Assembly (NCBI GenBank): GCA_009691555.1
Contig: SICB01000002.1
Span: 1-32,903 of the forward strand
Direction of reading: 5' to 3'
Origin: Patescibacteria group bacterium
GTDB taxonomy: Bacteria; Patescibacteriota; Saccharimonadia; CAILAD01; BJGX01
Length of the DNA stretch: 32,903 bases
The notes beneath the pieces are model-generated. The model searched no databases and was not told the origin of the DNA. It saw only the letters and a list, made by a program, of their open reading frames with translations. Positions 12,164-18,907 of this stretch are shown here, in pieces. Position numbers and translations under genes: made by a program. Numbering within the stretch: position 1 is the stretch's first letter; each line of letters opens with the position of its first letter.

Positions 12164-12757
12164 CTATCCTCTACCGTTCGAGTAAAGCACAGCGTGGGTG
12201 GGTACGGCTGCCTTGCCGTATTGGCCCCTAAGTCCGCGAATACGTGCATCACGAGCGTCGGCTAGTGATTCAACTTCGGCCCTACGACGGCTCTTATTCA
12301 CGAAATTCTCTGCATCTTTCAAGTCTTTGGATCGAACAGACAGATGCATGTACTTACTCTTAGCGTAGTTATCATATACGGACGAGTATAGAATCGTCCT
12401 GATGTCGGCCAACTCACTGGCAGAATACTTATCACGCCTGTCCCATTGGTCAAGAAAGAGGTTAACAAAATCGAAGCATTGGCTGCTTAGGCCAGGCTCT
12501 GGTTTACCCTTCTTCACCTTTTCTTGACTAAGCGTAGTGAGGTGCCCAACTGCACCTTTAATATCCGCCCTAGAAAACCCTACGTCTCCTGACGATGGGT
12601 AGTTGGCCATAACTTTATTGGCCAGATAATCCTTTATGATGACCATCTCAACGGTGTTGTATTTAACCGTCTCAGGCCAATGAACTGCCCAGTTATCGAG
12701 GAATCCGGATATCACTCCCTCGGATTCAGAGGATAGCAACCAGCGTTTTCTATTCAA
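12164..12757 (-). CDS. hypothetical protein (TTG start)
   Basis: 197-aa ORF with purine-rich SD AGAAAGGAAAG before the TTG, and its own terminator. I recognise no family. Confidence 0.5.
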   Translation of the reverse strand: MNRKRWLLSSESEGVISGFLDNWAVHWPETVKYNTVEMVIIKDYLANKVMANYPSSGDVGFSRADIKGAVGHLTTLSQEKVKKGKPEPGLSSQCFDFVNLFLDQWDRRDKYSASELADIRTILYSSVYDNYAKSKYMHLSVRSKDLKDAENFVNKSRRRAEVESLADARDARIRGLRGQYGKAAVPTHAVLYSNGRG

Positions 12758-12853: not shown

Positions 12854-14185
12854 CTACTGCCAGCGCCAGGTGTCTAGTATGTTTTTTGTGACCGTTTTAT
12901 CGAATTCGTCTTGGTAGGTCGTAGTAATAGCAACAACCGTGACAGTTTTGCCATCTTGCTGGTAGTTTTTACCCACCAATAGCAATGCTGCTAGGGAGTA
13001 GGTTTTGCCATCAGTAGCTTTGTATATAACCTGTGTGGCATCGAGACCGTCGAGCTTGATGACATCTGTTGACAGTACTGTTACGGACGCACTAGATATT
13101 GCCAAGTATTCGTCGATCTTTTGGTAAGGTTCTGTCTTGGTATCTACCGCAATTGTACTAATTGCTTTTTGGCCAAATGTAGATGGGCCAAAGCTGCAGT
13201 TTTCGTCTGTTGGGACAGAGTTGGGTATAAAGATAGCAAAGCTATAGCACTGCTTAGTGATGGTGGTATAGCCTTCGGGGGGAGTGGCTGGGCCAGAGCC
13301 TGACGAAGGTGTTGGCGTTGGTGTTGGTGCTGAGTCTGGCGTTGGTGTAGGCGCTGGGGTCGACTTTTTGGCAATAACTGCGAAGTAATAAACTCCGCCG
13401 CCGACCAAGGCGAGGCCCAAAACAATGCCAAGGATAATAAATATCATTTTTTTACTCTTTTTGGGTGCCGGGCCAGGAGTGCCCATGGTATTCATTGCGG
13501 ATACAGCAGCCCCCAAATTGGCGGCTCCCGGTAAAGCCTCTGGCTGGGCATAGCTCGGGGGCATTGGCTCAGGAGCTGGTGCTGGCATTGGCTCAGGAGC
13601 TGGTGCTGGCATTGGCTCAGGAGCTGGTGCTAGAATTGGCTCGGTGGCTGTTGCTGGCATTGGCTCAGGAGCTGGTGCTAGCATTGGCTCGGTGGCTGTT
13701 GCTGGCATTGGCTCGGCTGAGACACCAGGTGCCATCGAGCCATCATCCATAGCGCCTTCTATCGGCGTTACTGCGGCGTAGCTATCAGACATTGTTGGGT
13801 CCACCTGCGGCGGAGTTGGATTGGCAGGCAGAGGCATATCTAGAGTAGCAGATGGCTCTGGCGCGACAGTACTGTCAGGTGTGACTGGCATAAAGCTAGT
13901 GTCTGCAGGCGGGGCAAATGTCGGCTGATCTATTTGGCCTGCGCCCAAAGCATCATTCGGAGCTTGGGTACTGAGCATATCGGTATCGGCTTGGGCATCT
14001 TGTTGCCAGGCTGGGGCCGAATCCTGGGGGCTGGTTTGCGGTGAAAAAGTTGCCCCACCCTGCAATGACCCAGTCTGATTATCTGGCTGGCTGGCCGCAT
14101 CGCCTAAGCCCGTATTGCCTGCAGCAGCAGCTTGACCATCGGTCGTAATTTGATCTATCGGAAAGTTATTGTCTTGGGGTTGCAT
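12854..14185 (-). CDS. Pro/Ala/Thr-rich single-pass membrane protein with a C-terminal globular extracytoplasmic domain
   Basis: 443 aa. The long disordered N-terminus carries EPMPAPAP/EPMPATAT repeats. One TM segment is MIFIILGIVLGLALVGGGVYYFAVI. A PTPTP linker precedes a ~140-aa folded-looking C-terminus. Confidence 0.6.
   Translation of the reverse strand: MQPQDNNFPIDQITTDGQAAAAGNTGLGDAASQPDNQTGSLQGGATFSPQTSPQDSAPAWQQDAQADTDMLSTQAPNDALGAGQIDQPTFAPPADTSFMPVTPDSTVAPEPSATLDMPLPANPTPPQVDPTMSDSYAAVTPIEGAMDDGSMAPGVSAEPMPATATEPMLAPAPEPMPATATEPILAPAPEPMPAPAPEPMPAPAPEPMPPSYAQPEALPGAANLGAAVSAMNTMGTPGPAPKKSKKMIFIILGIVLGLALVGGGVYYFAVIAKKSTPAPTPTPDSAPTPTPTPSSGSGPATPPEGYTTITKQCYSFAIFIPNSVPTDENCSFGPSTFGQKAISTIAVDTKTEPYQKIDEYLAISSASVTVLSTDVIKLDGLDATQVIYKATDGKTYSLAALLLVGKNYQQDGKTVTVVAITTTYQDEFDKTVTKNILDTWRWQ
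13561..13720. repeat. in-frame 24-nt tandem repeat, about 6.5 copies in two unit variants
   Basis: Units gcattggctcaggagctggtgct(g/a) and g(c/a)attggctcggtggctgttgctg tile 13561-13704, with a partial copy after. They encode the 8-aa repeats PAPEPMPA and TATEP(M/I)LA. Confidence 0.85.
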
Positions 14186-15083: not shown

Positions 15084-16406
15084 ATGAAAAAGACAATCAA
15101 AAAAATTGTTCAGCCAATAATTCCAAAGTCGTTGATCAACTTTTTTCACTTCTCGGAGTCGATTGCTGCGGCCCAGAAATACCAGCACCCAAGCAACAAG
15201 ATGATTGTGATTGGGTTGGTTGGTAGTAAGGGCAAAACCACGACTGCCAATATGCTGTGGTCGATTTTGAGTGCCGAAGGCCATAAGGTCGGGCTTATCG
15301 GTACCGCCAATATTCGCTTTGGCCAAAAGGAAGAGCTAAATCATTATCATATGACTATGCCGGGGGCCTTTGTGCTTCAAGGATTACTGGCAAAAATGTC
15401 GGCTATGCACTGTCAATATGTAGTTATGGAAGTGCCATCGGAGGGTCAAACCCAACACCGGCATGTTGGTATCAATTTTGATGTATTGATATTTACCAAT
15501 GTCACCAATGAGCTAATGGCGGCCCATGGCTATAGTATCGACACCCTGCACAAGCACAACAAGCGTGTCTTTAAGCGGCTTAACCACTCTAAACGCAAAA
15601 CTATCGGCTTGCAAAAGATTGCAAAGATAATTGTCGCCAACGCTGACAGTAAAGATGCGCCTGACTACCTGCTGTTTCAGGCTGACAAGAAAATTACTTT
15701 TGGTCGGTCCAAAGATGCCGATTTTAGAATCAGCAATATTGCTCAAATTCCAGATAAAATTAGTTTTGATGTTAATGGTGATAATTACACTACCAAAATA
15801 CTCGGTAAAATAAACGCCATTAATGCAACCGGTGCTATCGCTACGGCTGTTGCGCTTGGTATTAGCGACAGATCTATCAAACAAGGACTGGCCAAGCTCC
15901 CCACCATCCCGGGCCGTATGGAAGTAATCGAGAGCAAGCAGCCCTTCGCTGTGGTGGTCGATTACGCCCATGAGCAAGCCAGCATGACCGCACTGATGGA
16001 CAGTGCGCGCGATATGATACCCAAAGGTGCCAAGGTTATTACCCTTTTGGGTGCCGAGGGTGGCGGACGAGATAGTGCCAAACGCCCCGAAATGGGCGCA
16101 ATCTGCGCCAAGGGCTCGGACATAATAATACTTAGTAATGTTGACCCCTACGATGACGATCCTGAAACAATCCTTGCTGATATCGCGGAGGGGGCGCTTG
16201 GGGCTGGTGCCGAAAAAAATAAGACTATGTTTATTGTCCCCGACCGCCGCGAAGGTATTCGTAAGGCCCTAGAGCTAGCTAGCAAAGACGACATAGTACT
16301 AATTACCGGCAAAGGTGCCGAACAGTCGATGGAAATTGGCGGCCAGTCGATAGCTTGGGATGACAGAAAAGTTGTCCGCGAAGAGCTGGCAAAATTAGTC
16401 GGTTAA
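15084..16406 (+). CDS. Mur ligase family protein, MurE-like, with a short N-terminal domain
   Basis: The P-loop is GLVGSKGKTTTANM. VVVDYAHE and GAEGGGRDSAKRPEMG match Mur ligase central and C-terminal motifs. The position of the MurE DNPR motif reads NVDPY. Confidence 0.8.
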   Translation: MKKTIKKIVQPIIPKSLINFFHFSESIAAAQKYQHPSNKMIVIGLVGSKGKTTTANMLWSILSAEGHKVGLIGTANIRFGQKEELNHYHMTMPGAFVLQGLLAKMSAMHCQYVVMEVPSEGQTQHRHVGINFDVLIFTNVTNELMAAHGYSIDTLHKHNKRVFKRLNHSKRKTIGLQKIAKIIVANADSKDAPDYLLFQADKKITFGRSKDADFRISNIAQIPDKISFDVNGDNYTTKILGKINAINATGAIATAVALGISDRSIKQGLAKLPTIPGRMEVIESKQPFAVVVDYAHEQASMTALMDSARDMIPKGAKVITLLGAEGGGRDSAKRPEMGAICAKGSDIIILSNVDPYDDDPETILADIAEGALGAGAEKNKTMFIVPDRREGIRKALELASKDDIVLITGKGAEQSMEIGGQSIAWDDRKVVREELAKLVG

Positions 16407-16554: not shown

Positions 16555-17148
16555 CTAATTACTAATTTTTCTAGCGATAATATCAAAAACATGCCAATGT
16601 TTTGGATTTCCATCCGCTGTTTTACCTTCAAATTCTTTTACGTCAAATAGTATCACATTCATATCGCCGAGCATCAATTGCGCTTCTTCTTTTGTAACAA
16701 AAGTCAGATTTTTATTCAGATGCCATTCATCACGATTTCCAAAAAATTGCCCACAAAAAATTCCATTTTTAACTAGAGATTTTTTTATACCTTCAAACAC
16801 GCCAGTAAACTTACTGGAATGGATAAATGGCAATGAGTATATAGCCGCGGCTACGTCATACTCATTTTGAGGAAAATCAAAATCAGCAAAATCGGTGCGG
16901 AAAAATTTCAGCTCGTTTGATTTAATATTTTGAACAGAGTCCTCCACTGCTTTCTCTTTATCAATAATCGTTGTTTCAAAGCCCTGAGAAAGTAAATATT
17001 TAGTGTCTTTCAATGTACCTCCACCGCCAATATCTATTGCTTTATTTTTGACTTTAACATACTCCATGGCTTTAACGAGTAATGGAGCCGGAGGATAGCT
17101 CTTTGTATTCTCAAAATAATTTTCCCAATCAATTGATTTGTTATTCAT
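16555..17148 (-). CDS. class I SAM-dependent methyltransferase (TehB-like size and motifs)
   Basis: I trimmed the start to MNNKSIDW (ATG at 17148), because the tracked N-terminal extension runs through the upstream terminator hairpin. Motif I is AIDIGGGGTLKD. The gene is about 33% GC in the two 60-nt rows I counted, versus about 50% in the neighbours. Confidence 0.75.
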   Translation of the reverse strand: MNNKSIDWENYFENTKSYPPAPLLVKAMEYVKVKNKAIDIGGGGTLKDTKYLLSQGFETTIIDKEKAVEDSVQNIKSNELKFFRTDFADFDFPQNEYDVAAAIYSLPFIHSSKFTGVFEGIKKSLVKNGIFCGQFFGNRDEWHLNKNLTFVTKEEAQLMLGDMNVILFDVKEFEGKTADGNPKHWHVFDIIARKISN

Positions 17149-17170
17149 GTAGATTATTATAACAAAAATT

Positions 17171-17214
17171 AAAAAAAATCCTACACAGTATACAATGATG
17201 TATACTGTGTAGGA
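17171..17214 (-). terminator. strong rho-independent terminator after the 27-aa peptide gene
   Basis: Perfect 16-bp stem tcctacacagtataca (17179-17194) with tgtatactgtgtagga (17199-17214) and a 4-nt loop. A8 at 17171-17178 gives U8 downstream on the minus strand. Confidence 0.8.
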
Positions 17215-17232
17215 TAGCACTACGGTCACAGG

Positions 17233-17316
17233 TTACGTTGTGCAGCCCTGACAGGATGCGCATTTCGCGGAGTAAAGCTTCTCAGCGATGCGCTTAATTC
17301 GTTCCTGACGTGTCAT
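17233..17316 (-). CDS. 27-aa Cys-rich peptide MTRQERIKRIAEKLYSAKCASCQGCTT (candidate RiPP precursor)
   Basis: Not in the ORF track because it is too short. ATG is at 17316 and TAA at 17233-17235. SD AAGGAGGTGAT lies 4 nt before the ATG. It is 35 nt downstream of the oxygenase stop and 18 nt upstream of the terminator hairpin. Confidence 0.5.
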   Translation of the reverse strand: MTRQERIKRIAEKLYSAKCASCQGCTT

Positions 17317-17351
17317 TTCTATCACCTCCTTCTTTCTGGGATCGTGCGGGT

Positions 17352-18008
17352 TCATACGTACTGTATAAAAACCCTGAGCTGTAAACGCCTACTCGACGGA
17401 TCAAGCTGATCGCGTCCATGAAGCATTACGAAGTTATCGAACCAGATTGCCTGACCAGCCTTGAGCTTAAAAGACAAAAATCTTTTCTCACTCCGTCGGA
17501 TCAACAGTACCTCGTTGAAGCGTTTGATCGCGGTCACTTGGGAATCATTGAGCTTGTCTAGATTCACGAGGGCGAACGCTGGCAGCCAGTAAACGTGCGG
17601 TGGTCGACCTTCTTCTACGGTCAACAGCGGGAGCCGATCTTCACTGCGTGGCAAGGGTATCTGAACACTTTTCAAGTCCTCAACCTCTAGCAGAGAAAGC
17701 TCTCCCAGTATGTCACGAGTATCAATCAGCAGATTCTCTCCACCACCCAGATTATCCACCTCTTCACAAAACAAGCCCACAACGTTCGCTAGCGGATAAT
17801 CTGTATGAAACGGAACCTCATCCGGTAAGTGGGAGTACCCGGTGTATTTTTCCACCGTTTCTTTGGGTTTGAGGAAAATTTCCCTGGTTTGAGTAACCTT
17901 GCCAAGTTCGTTACAAATTGCCAAGTAGTTTTCCCTGTCGCCGACATCGGCGATAACGTACCTGTTCAGATCGAGACAGCTACGGATATTCAATACGCTA
18001 GGTTTCAT
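17352..18008 (-). CDS. TauD/TfdA-family Fe(II)/2-oxoglutarate-dependent oxygenase
   Basis: The HxD motif is in VPFHTDYP. The distal His and Arg are in FDNFVMLHGRD. I prefer the ATG at 18008 (GAGG 9 nt upstream) over the tracked GTG at 18023. It overlaps the upstream gene by 11 nt. Confidence 0.75.
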   Translation of the reverse strand: MKPSVLNIRSCLDLNRYVIADVGDRENYLAICNELGKVTQTREIFLKPKETVEKYTGYSHLPDEVPFHTDYPLANVVGLFCEEVDNLGGGENLLIDTRDILGELSLLEVEDLKSVQIPLPRSEDRLPLLTVEEGRPPHVYWLPAFALVNLDKLNDSQVTAIKRFNEVLLIRRSEKRFLSFKLKAGQAIWFDNFVMLHGRDQLDPSSRRLQLRVFIQYV

Positions 18009-18498
18009 GATGCACCGCCTCACAGGGTTGATCGAAAAGTCTCGGTTTCTGAAGCTTGACGAGCACTTCGGCTGAGTATCTTACGGAATATTCTTCATAC
18101 CACCTGATCATCGTGTCCTCGCCGACTACTTCGCAGATGTAGTTCAGTTGCAACTCAGTTTCTTCGCGACTGGGTGGTTGGAAGTCGGGTGCGCCCGGGG
18201 AATGATGAATGAAGGTCCCCAGATACTCCTTACAGAATTGCTCGTAGTCGCGCGTATGGAGGACGAAGGTGTGCCAATATTCATCGACAACCACCATCCC
18301 CGAATGGATGACCAGAATACGCGGGATGTCTTCGTGATTTTGCGAGCGATCTTGCTTCAGTCGGGCATTGAGCCATAACCACTTAAGTGCCTCTAAGGCG
18401 ATTTCCTGCGCCTCGGGCAATGAGACCGCATACAATACTCTGAACTGGTTAAGTACTCGGTCGTTCTTATAGTTCAAGGCTTCCTCGAGACTACGCAT
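17998..18498 (-). CDS. hypothetical His-rich protein, possibly DUF1399/GRDP-like
   Basis: I trimmed the start to MRSLEEAL (ATG at 18498, SD AAGGAG 5 nt upstream). The motif VVDEYWHTFVLHTRDYEQFCKEYLGTFIHHSP resembles the D-x2-WH-x-H-x-L-x3-Y-x3-C...HH-P pattern I recall for glycine-rich-domain-containing-protein-like families. That is recollection only. Confidence 0.6.
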   Translation of the reverse strand: MRSLEEALNYKNDRVLNQFRVLYAVSLPEAQEIALEALKWLWLNARLKQDRSQNHEDIPRILVIHSGMVVVDEYWHTFVLHTRDYEQFCKEYLGTFIHHSPGAPDFQPPSREETELQLNYICEVVGEDTMIRWYEEYSVRYSAEVLVKLQKPRLFDQPCEAVHHET

Positions 18499-18549
18499 GT
18501 TCACTCCTTCCTGGAGTTTATTGAGATTGTTAATGTACACTAAAAACAC

Positions 18550-18578
18550 AGATTACCAGAAGGTGACCTTTTTATCAA
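18550..18578 (-). promoter_or_regulatory. sigma70-like promoter for the islet operon, TTGATA-17nt-TAATCT on the minus strand
   Basis: The minus-strand -35 TTGATA is plus-strand tatcaa at 18573-18578 and overlaps the inner end of the right inverted repeat. The -10 TAATCT is plus-strand agatta at 18550-18555. The spacer is 17 nt. Confidence 0.4.
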
Positions 18579-18604
18579 TGACGTGCCAAGTACACACGTT
18601 GGGC
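18577..18604. repeat. right copy of the 28-bp perfect inverted repeat
   Basis: aatgacgtgccaagtacacacgttgggc is the exact reverse complement of 16504-16531. Its outer 5 nt (tgggc, 18600-18604) are already part of the Mur-ligase-tail homology. Confidence 0.9.
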
Positions 18605-18907
18605 GCAATCTGCGCCAAGGGCTCGGACATAATAATACTTAGTAATGTTGACCCCTACGAAGACGATCCTGAAACAATCCTTGCTGATATCGCTGAGGGG
18701 GCGCTTGGGGCTGGTGCCGAAAAAAATAAGAGTATGTTTATTGTCCCCGACCGCCGCGAAGGTATTCGCAAAGCCTTGCAGTTGGCCCAAAAAGACGACT
18801 TGGTGCTAATTACCGGCAAGGGTGCCGAACAGTCGATGGAAATTGGCGGCCAGTCGATAGCTTGGGATGATAGAAAAGTTGTCCGCGAAGAGCTATTGAA
18901 GCTTTAA
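18600..18907 (+). pseudogene. displaced 3' fragment of the Mur ligase gene (about 102 codons)
   Basis: It encodes GAICAKGSDIIILSNVDPYEDDPETILADIAEGALGAGAEKNKSMFIVPDRREGIRKALQLAQKDDLVLITGKGAEQSMEIGGQSIAWDDRKVVREELLKL. That is nearly identical to the C-terminus of the 15084-16406 product. It lacks the ATPase domain. Confidence 0.8.

What the first reader, a model, noticed from the sequence alone, without database searches (positions are those of the whole stretch)
17233..17316. Untracked 27-aa ORF with a helical basic N-terminus and a C-x2-C-x2-C C-terminus
My translation of the minus strand gives MTRQERIKRIAEKLYSAKCASCQGCTT. The signals are unusually strong for a random short ORF. AAGGAGGTGAT sits 4 nt before the ATG. 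The stop lies 18 nt before a perfect terminator. The position directly follows an enzyme gene.

The layout is a charged amphipathic N-terminal half followed by a short Cys/Ser/Thr-rich C-terminal core. That layout is shared by very short RiPP precursors such as methanobactin MbnA-type and SCIFF/ranthipeptide precursors. This is analogy only; no sequence homology is claimed.
Basis: seen in the sequence. Interest (0 to 1): 0.8.

Follow-up and report, generated by a model that had tools for sequence, protein, structure and literature searches.

The report
Conserved Cys-rich mini-gene beside dioxygenase
The 27-codon reading frame is a real, strongly conserved but unannotated gene that always travels with an uncharacterised helical protein and a small iron/2-oxoglutarate dioxygenase on a mobile cassette in ultra-small (CPR) bacteria. 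It is most likely the precursor of a new kind of enzyme-modified peptide.

Summary
The ORF is a genuine gene.

**Conservation**
- A homologous peptide lies next to every related enzyme pair whose contig covers the position: 20 distinct loci and 20 distinct peptides.
- Codon substitutions are those of a coding gene: differences by codon position 0.23/0.18/0.50, and median dN/dS 0.14.
- Gene order differs between lineages (A-B-peptide-MT versus peptide-A-B), but the association persists.
- Conserved features are a leader helix (I-x-x-I-[AVL]-x-x-[LM]) and a C-terminal C-x-G-C-x-x-COOH, usually CQGC.

**Partners**
- ORF A is a PF27765 "UCP032817-like" protein. Its confident all-helical model has no neighbour in the PDB, and D, H and H residues are invariant.
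- ORF B is a rare, short TauD-family Fe/2OG dioxygenase with intact HxD...H...R motifs.
- A SAM methyltransferase is usually present, from at least two unrelated families.

**Mobility**
In the window the four genes form a 2.2-kb insertion, bracketed by a 295-nt duplication of a Mur-ligase gene's 3' end.

**Interpretation**
The best reading (about 0.55) is a new RiPP-like precursor modified at its C-terminal Cys motif. It is not a member of the MbnA or SCIFF families. The main rival is an unmodified metal- or redox-binding partner peptide. No published description was found.

The parts
17233..17316 (-). 27-aa peptide gene (MTRQERIKRIAEKLYSAKCASCQGCTT, stop included). Proposed leader is residues 1-14 (amphipathic helix I-x-x-I-A-x-x-L). 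Proposed core is the C-terminal C-A-S-C-Q-G-C-T-T.
   Evidence: Conserved in 20 distinct loci. dN/dS about 0.14.
17321..17331 (-). Shine-Dalgarno sequence AAGGAGGTGAT, 4 nt before the ATG.
   Evidence: A GGAGG(T) motif lies 5-8 nt upstream of the start in all type (i) homologues.
17171..17215 (-). Intrinsic terminator: perfect 17-bp stem with 4-nt loop (17215-17178) and T-run (17177-17171).
   Evidence: A hairpin of different sequence follows the peptide gene in all other loci.
17352..18008 (-). ORF B: short (218 aa) TauD/TfdA-family Fe(II)/2-oxoglutarate dioxygenase. H68-x-D70, H197, R199 and R208 are invariant. Its start overlaps the end of ORF A.
17998..18498 (-). ORF A: 166-aa PF27765 'UCP032817-like' protein. 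It is all-helical with no PDB structural neighbour. D72, W75, H76, Y85 and H99 are invariant.
16555..17148 (-). Class I SAM methyltransferase (197 aa, TehB-like), immediately after the terminator. It has no Shine-Dalgarno sequence, and a TATAAT box lies just upstream of the ATG.
   Evidence: It follows the peptide gene in 12 of 14 distinct type (i) loci.
16093..16387 (+). Left copy of a 295-nt direct repeat. It is the 3' end of the intact Mur-ligase gene (15084-16406).
18600..18894 (+). Right copy of the direct repeat (94% identical). It is an orphan Mur_ligase_C fragment. Together the two copies bracket the 4-gene cassette as an insertion.

Best explanation
The 27-aa ORF encodes the precursor (substrate) peptide of a previously undescribed RiPP-like pathway, carried on a small mobile cassette in Patescibacteria (CPR).

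**Shown**
- The gene is real and under purifying selection.
- It is always linked to ORF A (PF27765) and ORF B (short TauD-like Fe/2OG dioxygenase), and usually to a SAM methyltransferase.
- Its conserved parts are an N-terminal amphipathic helix and a C-terminal C-x-G-C-x-x-COOH.

**Inferred**
- The peptide is translated at a high level, from its strong Shine-Dalgarno sequence. In the alternative gene order, the hairpin after the gene would raise the peptide-to-enzyme transcript ratio.
- The helix acts as a leader that docks on the acidic ORF A and/or ORF B.
- The dioxygenase oxidises the C-terminal Cys/Gln/Gly motif, by hydroxylation or thiol-directed oxidation or cross-linking.
- ORF A, with its invariant Asp/His cluster, acts either as a second metalloenzyme or as the substrate-presenting partner.
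- The methyltransferase then methylates a thiol or the C-terminal carboxylate.
- The cassette carries no protease or exporter. The product may therefore act inside the cell (metal- or redox-active peptide, or cofactor precursor), or it may rely on host functions for release.
For: **Real coding gene**
- 12 distinct 27-codon homologues show pairwise differences of 0.23/0.18/0.50 at codon positions 1/2/3. Mean pN is 0.20 against pS 0.68, and median dN/dS is 0.14.
- Length, Shine-Dalgarno sequence and downstream hairpin are conserved, while the hairpin sequence itself varies.

**Obligate association**
- Every locus of the ORF A + ORF B clade that covers the position has the peptide: 14 distinct loci with order A-B-peptide and 6 with order peptide-A-B.
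- Distant PF27765 loci that lack an ORF B-like gene have no such peptide.

**Leader/core pattern**
- The alignment of the first 18 peptides shows a conserved I-x-x-I-[AVL]-x-x-[LM] helix and a variable linker of 4-10 residues.
- C-x-G-C lies exactly two residues from the C-terminus in all 20 peptides.
- pN is lower in the core (0.14) than in the leader (0.24).

**Enzyme partners look catalytically competent**
- ORF B keeps HxD...H...R and matches a TauD/TfdA structure (7tcl, E = 7e-11).
- ORF A has invariant D72/H76/H99 on a confident model (pLDDT 93).

**Methyltransferases**
- At least two unrelated families sit in the cassettes.

**Other peptide-modification enzymes nearby**
- In L024 a radical SAM/SPASM-like enzyme lies directly upstream of the peptide gene.

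**Charge complementarity**
- Peptide net charge anticorrelates with ORF A net charge (r = -0.68, n = 17, not corrected for phylogeny).

**Published precedents**
- Fe/2OG enzymes paired with a second helical metalloenzyme act on RiPP precursors: SmaO/SmaX (PMC12186529) and the alpha-KG HEXXH enzymes (PMC12636437).
Against: - No modification has been observed.
- No RiPP recognition element, leader peptidase or transporter is in the cassette.
- ORF A matches no known RiPP enzyme or RRE by sequence or fold.
- C-x-x-C motifs are also typical of simple metal or redox sites.
- The chemistry proposed for each enzyme is inferred only from family membership.
- The charge correlation is not phylogenetically independent.
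- The radical SAM neighbour occurs in a single locus.
Confidence: 0.55

Rival explanations
1. The peptide is not modified. It is a small Cys-rich metal- or redox-active partner, such as an Fe/Zn/Cu-binding subunit, a metallochaperone or a CxxC electron donor. It would work together with ORF A and ORF B, which act on some other (small-molecule) substrate.
For: - The invariant C-x-G-C, often C-x-x-C-x-G-C, is a classical metal/redox motif.
- The cassette has no protease or exporter.
- The peptide gene occurs once per enzyme pair in all loci.
- A basic helix paired with an acidic ORF A suggests a stable complex.
- TauD-family enzymes mostly act on small molecules.
Against: - The N-terminal two-thirds diverge almost completely between lineages. 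Only the helix periodicity and the last six residues are kept, which is more typical of a substrate than of a structural subunit.
- The third Cys is dispensable.
- The fixed two-residue distance of the motif from the free C-terminus is unexplained by this model.
- So is the repeated recruitment of different methyltransferases, and of a radical SAM enzyme in L024.
Confidence: 0.27
2. The ORF is a cis-regulatory leader or arrest peptide. Translation of its Cys codons would sense cysteine or sulfur status and control the adjacent terminator, and so the expression of a TauD-type sulfur-scavenging operon or of the methyltransferase.
For: - A hairpin or terminator always follows the ORF.
- In six loci the ORF lies upstream of A-B.
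- Classical TauD enzymes are sulfur-starvation proteins (established knowledge).
Against: - In the window and 13 other loci the ORF lies after A-B, so it cannot regulate them.
- No alternative anti-terminator pairing is predicted; the centroid fold keeps the 17-bp terminator intact.
- There is no Rfam match.
- The distance from stop codon to hairpin varies from 8 to 33 nt.
- Purifying selection also acts on non-Cys residues: the I-x-x-I-x-x-x-L helix, and the Q and G of CQGC.
Confidence: 0.05
3. It is a chance ORF in an intergenic spacer, or the remnant or frameshifted tail of the dioxygenase gene.
For: It is below gene-caller length limits and absent from protein databases. In the window an upstream in-frame ATG overlaps the ORF B stop codon.
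Against: - The frame, length and start are conserved in 20 loci, with saturated synonymous change.
- The frame relative to ORF B differs between loci, and each copy has its own Shine-Dalgarno sequence.
- In six loci the gene sits upstream of ORF A instead.
Confidence: 0.01

Closest known systems
SmaA/SmaO/SmaX-type RiPP tailoring (Fe(II)/2OG hydroxylase plus a helical Fe-dependent HD-domain oxygenase; PMC12186529)
   Same: A small ribosomal peptide is encoded beside an Fe/2OG dioxygenase and a second, all-helical His/Asp-rich protein. By analogy a two-enzyme oxidative cascade on the peptide is plausible. The same logic applies to PhnY/PhnZ and TmpA/TmpB, and ORF B weakly matches TmpA.
   Different: - ORF A is not an HD-domain protein. 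It has no Pfam or PDB sequence match and no Foldseek neighbour.
- The target motif is C-x-G-C at the C-terminus, not Asp in Gly-rich regions.
- There is no ATP-grasp gene or PCAT transporter.
Methanobactin precursors (MbnA with MbnB/MbnC)
   Same: A very short precursor (about 25-30 aa) has a leader and a Cys-containing C-terminal core. An iron enzyme plus a small partner protein could modify Cys to give a metal-binding product.
   Different: - There is no DUF692/MNIO (MbnB) or MbnC gene.
- The iron enzyme here is a mononuclear TauD-fold 2OG dioxygenase.
- There is no sequence similarity, and no transporter or TonB genes.
SCIFF / ranthipeptide and other radical-SAM/SPASM-matured Cys-rich peptides
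   Same: These are small Cys-rich peptides with a conserved C-terminal Cys motif. One relative (L024) has a radical SAM/SPASM-like gene directly upstream of the peptide gene.
   Different: - There is no radical SAM gene in the window or in the other 19 cassettes.
- The peptide has 2-3 Cys, not six.
- There is no NCBIfam hit for the peptide.
- The L024 enzyme scores far below every family cut-off.
Alpha-KG-dependent HEXXH enzymes acting on the C-termini of RiPP precursors (PflC/PosC, BpmH, ChlH; PMC12636437)
   Same: A non-canonical helical metalloprotein recognises a short motif at the peptide C-terminus. ORF A carries an invariant D-E-x-W-H, which is ExxH-like.
   Different: ORF A matched no NCBIfam or Pfam model. 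It lacks the first His of HEXXH. A separate TauD-fold enzyme supplies the 2OG chemistry.

Membership tests
RiPP precursor peptide (generic definition) | Short ribosomally encoded peptide gene that is genuinely coding | tested here: met
   Conserved frame in 20 loci; dN/dS about 0.14.
RiPP precursor peptide (generic definition) | Consistent co-localisation with candidate modifying enzymes | tested here: met
   Always found with PF27765 and a TauD-like gene, in two different gene orders. A methyltransferase is usually present.
RiPP precursor peptide (generic definition) | Bipartite leader/core organisation (recognition helix plus conserved modified core) | tested here: met
   Conserved I-x-x-I-x-x-x-L helix, variable linker, invariant C-x-G-C-x-x C-terminus. 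The functional roles are inferred.
RiPP precursor peptide (generic definition) | Recognisable RRE, leader peptidase or exporter in the cluster | tested here: not met
   None lies between the direct repeats. ORF A has no RRE-like fold. This feature is not obligatory for RiPPs.
RiPP precursor peptide (generic definition) | Demonstrated post-translational modification of the peptide | not testable with these tools
   Needs co-expression and mass spectrometry.
Methanobactin (MbnA) system | Adjacent MbnB (DUF692/MNIO) and MbnC | tested here: not met
   Pfam and NCBIfam scans of all cassette genes show TauD, a methyltransferase and PF27765 only.
SCIFF / ranthipeptide | Six-Cys C-terminal motif matching the SCIFF model, and an adjacent radical SAM/SPASM maturase | tested here: not met
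   No NCBIfam hit for the peptide at E <= 1. There is no radical SAM gene in the cassette and only 3 Cys.
TauD/TfdA Fe(II)/2OG dioxygenase (ORF B) | HxD...H facial triad and 2OG-binding Arg; match to the family model | tested here: met
   PF02668 E = 1.2e-11, above the cut-off. H68, D70, H197, R199 and R208 are invariant. PDB 7tcl E = 7e-11.
PF27765 UCP032817-like (ORF A) | Match to the Pfam model | tested here: inconclusive
   The tag PF27765 is precomputed for all close homologues, including a 99%-identical one. The model is absent from the local Pfam copy, so it could not be rerun.
Leader-peptide transcription attenuator | Position upstream of the regulated genes, with mutually exclusive terminator and anti-terminator structures | tested here: not met
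   The ORF lies downstream of A-B in the window. No alternative pairing is predicted and there is no Rfam hit.
Known anti-phage defence systems (PADLOC) | Match of the cassette proteins to defence-system models | tested here: not met
   Only a generic methyltransferase-domain hit.

The most novel reading that the evidence does not exclude
The cassette makes a new class of ribosomal peptide product. A minimal TauD-fold dioxygenase and a metalloprotein of a previously unseen helical fold (PF27765) together transform a C-terminal Cys-x-Gly-Cys motif, with subsequent methylation. The product would be a thiol-derived metal-binding or redox-active moiety, or a peptide-derived cofactor in the manner of PQQ, mycofactocin or methanobactin. 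It would be spread horizontally as a 2-kb, exporter-less module among genome-reduced CPR bacteria. This would also assign a first function to PF27765.
Probability: 0.3. Interest if true: 0.85.

Novelty: new variant of a known kind. Interest (0 to 1): 0.72.

Why it matters
- The gene is invisible to standard annotation. At 84 nt it falls below gene-caller limits, and no homologue of the 27-aa form was found among the 5.8 billion protein clusters searched. Yet it is the conserved centre of a mobile module.
- If it is a precursor, it defines a new RiPP-like family with a very small, experimentally tractable gene set of four genes (about 2.2 kb).
- That would give a first functional handle on PF27765, a family also found in cyanobacteria, Bacteroidota, Bdellovibrionota and Legionella-like bacteria.
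- It would also extend TauD-fold chemistry to C-terminal Cys motifs.
- It would be one of the few natural-product-like pathways known in Patescibacteria, whose reduced genomes are thought to carry little secondary metabolism.

Tried and rejected
- **Protein search with the 40-aa extended form:** no candidates. The peptides are too short to have been called as genes.
- **Pfam, NCBIfam, PHROGs and PADLOC on the peptide:** nothing meaningful.
- **ORF A against the local Pfam copy,** even at E <= 10, and for 70 family members: no family. My recollection that it resembles the GRDP/DUF1399 domain could not be confirmed. Only one distant homologue carries NCBI's name "glycine-rich domain-containing protein", and NCBIfam gives nothing.
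- **ORF A profile against PDB sequences and Foldseek against the PDB:** no neighbour. HD-domain, HEXXH-protease and RRE folds are therefore not supported.
- **Structure prediction of ORF B with an alignment built from fetched loci:** A profile search against PDB sequences was used instead.
- **The broad alignment A2** was too diverse for the metagenome scan. A1 was used instead.
- **Viral contigs** hold only distant PF27765 relatives, without the peptide.
- **Attenuator idea:** rejected on geometry and folding.
- **Read-through or frameshift fusion to ORF B:** rejected because the relative frames differ between loci.
- **Literature searches** for UCP032817, PF27765, TauD + RiPP and CPR + RiPP found no description of this system.
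- **Look-up of P0048** (Microcoleus homologue) found no contig.

Full report
**1. Observation**

The minus strand of the window reads AAGGAGGTGAT-AGAA-ATG ACA CGT ... ACA ACG TAA.
- Seventeen nucleotides after the stop there is a perfect 17-bp stem with a 4-nt loop (17215-17178), followed by a T-run.
- The region folds much better than shuffles (z = -4.6), and the centroid structure keeps the terminator.
- A longer 40-aa version from an upstream ATG at 17355 overlaps the stop of the preceding gene. That extension is not conserved elsewhere.

**2. Surroundings**

The ORF is the third gene of a minus-strand unit.
- **ORF A** (18498-17998, 166 aa) has no hit in the local Pfam copy.
- **ORF B** (18008-17352, 218 aa) starts inside the end of ORF A. 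It is a TauD-family Fe(II)/2OG dioxygenase (PF02668, E = 1.2e-11) with weak similarity to gamma-butyrobetaine and TmpA hydroxylases.
- **A 197-aa class I SAM methyltransferase** (TehB-like, 17148-16555) follows the terminator.
- **The rest of the window** is ordinary housekeeping: PolA, DnaG, RpoD, Fpg, HolA, TrhO, PyrH, Dus and LytR.

The four genes sit between two copies of a 295-nt direct repeat (16093-16387 and 18600-18894, 94% identical).
- The left copy is the 3' end of an intact Mur-ligase gene (15084-16406).
- The right copy is an orphan Mur_ligase_C fragment, 93% identical at protein level.
- The cassette is therefore an insertion of about 2.2 kb at the 3' end of that gene.

**3. Related sequences**

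Homologous loci were collected from several sources:
- a scan of one genome per species with ORF B, which found five loci, all in Patescibacteria/CPR MAGs: Colwellbacteria, Doudnabacteria, Saccharibacteria, FCPU426 and an unclassified Patescibacteria bacterium;
- protein searches with ORF A, which found 25 close homologues among 5.8 billion clusters and, with a profile, 297 family members, all tagged PF27765 "UCP032817-like";
- contig look-ups;
- a metagenome scan.

The small gene is present in every locus of the ORF A + ORF B clade that covers the relevant position.

*Type (i), order A-B-peptide-hairpin-(MT).* There are 14 distinct loci, including the window.
- The peptide is always 27 aa.
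- It always has a GGAGG(T) Shine-Dalgarno sequence 5-8 nt upstream.
- It is always followed by a hairpin plus T-run whose sequence differs from locus to locus.
- Examples: MTRKERIKRIAKKLCAANCAACQGCQS (L005) and MTREQRIETIAATLHESTCAACQGCTS (L010).

*Type (ii), order peptide-hairpin-A-B.* There are 6 distinct loci, with ORF A only 43-53% identical to the window's.
- L007: MQDDKKILIEQIVATMYDSKLSNINLNCQGCTV
- L024: MSKELLIQKILIDMYETDSYNSNLNCQGCTA
- L017: MSKDEIINSILSKLYGPASVGECHGCQGCTA
- L018 (Moraniibacteriota): MQVETIADAKTSAQKDQVIARILAQLKAGNGACQGCES
- L052: MAKKKMAIARILSKLRASSYNACQGCTGCSN
- L053: MMDKKATLIRTLVAKLHQSGTSKGESPACQGCTT

*Controls and context.*
- Loci with only distant PF27765 proteins (38% identity or less) have neither an ORF B-like gene nor such a peptide.
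- Flanking genes differ in every locus. None of the window's neighbours recurs.
- Integrases (L012, L014-L017) or a tRNA gene (L018) lie next to several cassettes.
- These points agree with the insertion seen in the window.

**4. Is it coding?**

For the 12 distinct type (i) genes then in hand:

| Measure | Value |
|---|---|
| Mean pairwise difference, codon positions 1/2/3 | 0.23 / 0.18 / 0.50 |
| Mean pN versus pS | 0.20 versus 0.68 |
| Median dN/dS | 0.14 |
| pN in the C-terminal nine codons | 0.14 |
| pN in the leader | 0.24 |

- The frame relative to ORF B differs among loci, and each copy has its own ribosome-binding site. It is therefore not a read-through or frameshift tail.
- The 27-aa form is absent from the 5.8-billion-cluster protein collection. 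At 84 nt it is probably too short for standard gene callers (my knowledge, not tested here).

**5. What is conserved in the peptide**

The alignment of the first 18 peptides, together with L052 and L053, shows three features.
- A short helix-forming motif, I-x-x-I-[AVL]-x-x-[LM].
- A linker of variable length (4-10 residues) and composition.
- An invariant C-x-G-C followed by exactly two residues and the stop. It reads C-Q-G-C in 19 of the 20 peptides (L002 has C-T-G-C).

The triad is therefore not the essential unit.

**6. The partners**

*ORF B.*
- It retains the facial triad and the 2OG-binding arginines. H68, D70, H197, R199 and R208 are invariant.
- Its profile matches a solved TauD/TfdA dioxygenase (7tcl, E = 7e-11).
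- It belongs to a rare group of short (about 200-230 aa) TauD-like proteins. In 1.84 billion representatives only 266 score E <= 1e-3 and 50 score E <= 1e-10.

*ORF A.*
- Its model is confident (pLDDT 93.4, pTM 0.88) and consists of eight helices.
- It has no structural neighbour in the PDB (best Foldseek E = 1.8, TM <= 0.26) and no PDB sequence relative.
- Across 70 diverse family members, D72, W75, H76, Y85 and H99 are invariant. W40, L41, W42, L43, H98, C89 and G94 are nearly so.
- D72 and H76 sit one helical turn apart (D-E-x-W-H), and H98-H99 lie in the following loop. I read this as a probable metal site (inference).

*Methyltransferases.*
- The window type recurs in 12 of the 14 type (i) loci.
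- L018 and L052 carry a different, mutually homologous 175-aa methyltransferase-like protein.
- L053 carries a third, only weakly related one on the opposite strand.

*Other neighbours.*
- In L024 a radical SAM enzyme lies directly upstream of the peptide gene. It most resembles SPASM-type peptide maturases but scores below all cut-offs.

*Charge covariation.*
- Peptide net charge and ORF A net charge are anticorrelated (r = -0.68, n = 17). Basic peptides go with acidic ORF A, and the two most acidic peptides go with basic ORF A.
- This is suggestive of contact but is not corrected for shared ancestry.

**7. Explanation**

The pattern is that of a precursor peptide and its tailoring enzymes. 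The supporting features are:
- an obligate but order-independent linkage;
- a diverging recognition helix;
- an invariant motif anchored to the free C-terminus;
- a strong ribosome-binding site and a hairpin after the peptide gene in both arrangements;
- recurrent recruitment of non-orthologous methyltransferases.

I therefore favour (about 0.55) a new RiPP-like pathway in which the TauD-like enzyme and ORF A oxidatively modify the Cys-x-Gly-Cys C-terminus and a methyltransferase finishes the product. Which atoms are modified cannot be deduced.

Published precedents show that Fe/2OG enzymes paired with a second helical metalloenzyme do act on ribosomal peptides:
- SmaO/SmaX (PMC12186529);
- the alpha-KG HEXXH enzymes, which recognise C-terminal motifs (PMC12636437).

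ORF A belongs to neither family by the tests run here.

The lack of a protease, an exporter or an RRE in the 2.2-kb cassette is the main weakness. It also suggests that the product may act inside the cell.

**8. Rivals**

- **Unmodified metal/redox partner peptide (about 0.27).** It fits the CxxC chemistry and the missing export genes. It does not readily explain the leader divergence, the dispensable third Cys, the fixed distance to the C-terminus or the methyltransferases.
- **Cys-sensing leader or attenuator peptide (about 0.05).** This is contradicted by the position after A-B in most loci, by the absence of an anti-terminator alternative or Rfam family, by the variable stop-to-hairpin distances, and by selection on non-Cys residues.
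- **Chance ORF.** Excluded.

**9. Comparison and novelty**

- The system is not a methanobactin system, because it has no MbnB/MbnC.
- It is not a SCIFF/ranthipeptide system, because the window has no radical SAM gene and the peptide matches no model.
- It is not a lanthipeptide or a known defence system.
- No paper in the searchable library mentions UCP032817 or PF27765 or describes this gene set.
- I rate it a new variant of a known kind: a candidate new RiPP-like family with a novel enzyme pair, pending biochemical proof.

Noticed in passing
window 16093-16387 and 18600-18894 (+): A 295-nt direct repeat (94% identical) duplicates the 3' end of the Mur-ligase gene on both sides of the cassette. 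The right copy is an orphan Mur_ligase_C fragment (ORF 18497-18907). This looks like the att-type scar of an island that integrated into the 3' end of the gene, but no integrase lies between the repeats.
   Followed up: yes
window 17146-17170 (-); the same position in L001-L004, L013, L014: The methyltransferase gene has no Shine-Dalgarno sequence. It does have a -10-like box (TATAAT, TAGAAT or TAATAT) only 4-9 nt upstream of its ATG, directly after the terminator. This suggests a leaderless transcript or its own minimal promoter.
   Followed up: no
window 17353-17355 (-): An in-frame ATG overlaps the ORF B stop codon (ATGA) and would give a 40-aa form of the peptide. The extension is not conserved in other loci.
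   Followed up: yes
L024:558-1604 (+): A radical SAM enzyme (CxxxCxxC motif, Radical_SAM E = 4e-25) lies immediately upstream of the peptide gene in this AT-rich metagenomic contig. Its best matches are SPASM-type peptide maturases, below cut-off. It is the only cassette of this kind seen.
   Followed up: partly
L017:2107-2919 (+): An R2K-clade ATP-grasp protein is encoded just upstream of the peptide gene, next to an integrase and HTH regulators. Whether it belongs to the pathway is unknown.
   Followed up: no
L028:3883-4935, L030:3839-4942, L033:3888-4895, L041:3766-4956 (+): Distant PF27765 proteins (about 30-37% identity) are each followed by a conserved, unannotated protein of 335-396 aa starting MYF..K..IDPS..., instead of a TauD-like gene. 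This appears to be a second, different PF27765 partnership with no Pfam match.
   Followed up: partly
L037:2517-4767 (+): A PF27765-like protein is followed by a homologue of the window's methyltransferase (28% identity, E = 2e-31) and a sulfotransferase, without a TauD gene or a CQGC peptide.
   Followed up: no
L025 and L026 (3489-4082 and 4535-5254): Two PF27765 paralogues lie in tandem in a GC-rich contig.
   Followed up: no
L018:4390-4464 (+): A tRNA-Asp gene lies directly upstream of the peptide gene, after an ABC transporter gene. It is a possible integration site for that cassette.
   Followed up: no
window 12854-14185 (-) and 12164-12757 (-): Two sizeable ORFs (443 aa and 197 aa) next to a DDAH/arginine-deiminase-like gene have no Pfam match.
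   Followed up: no
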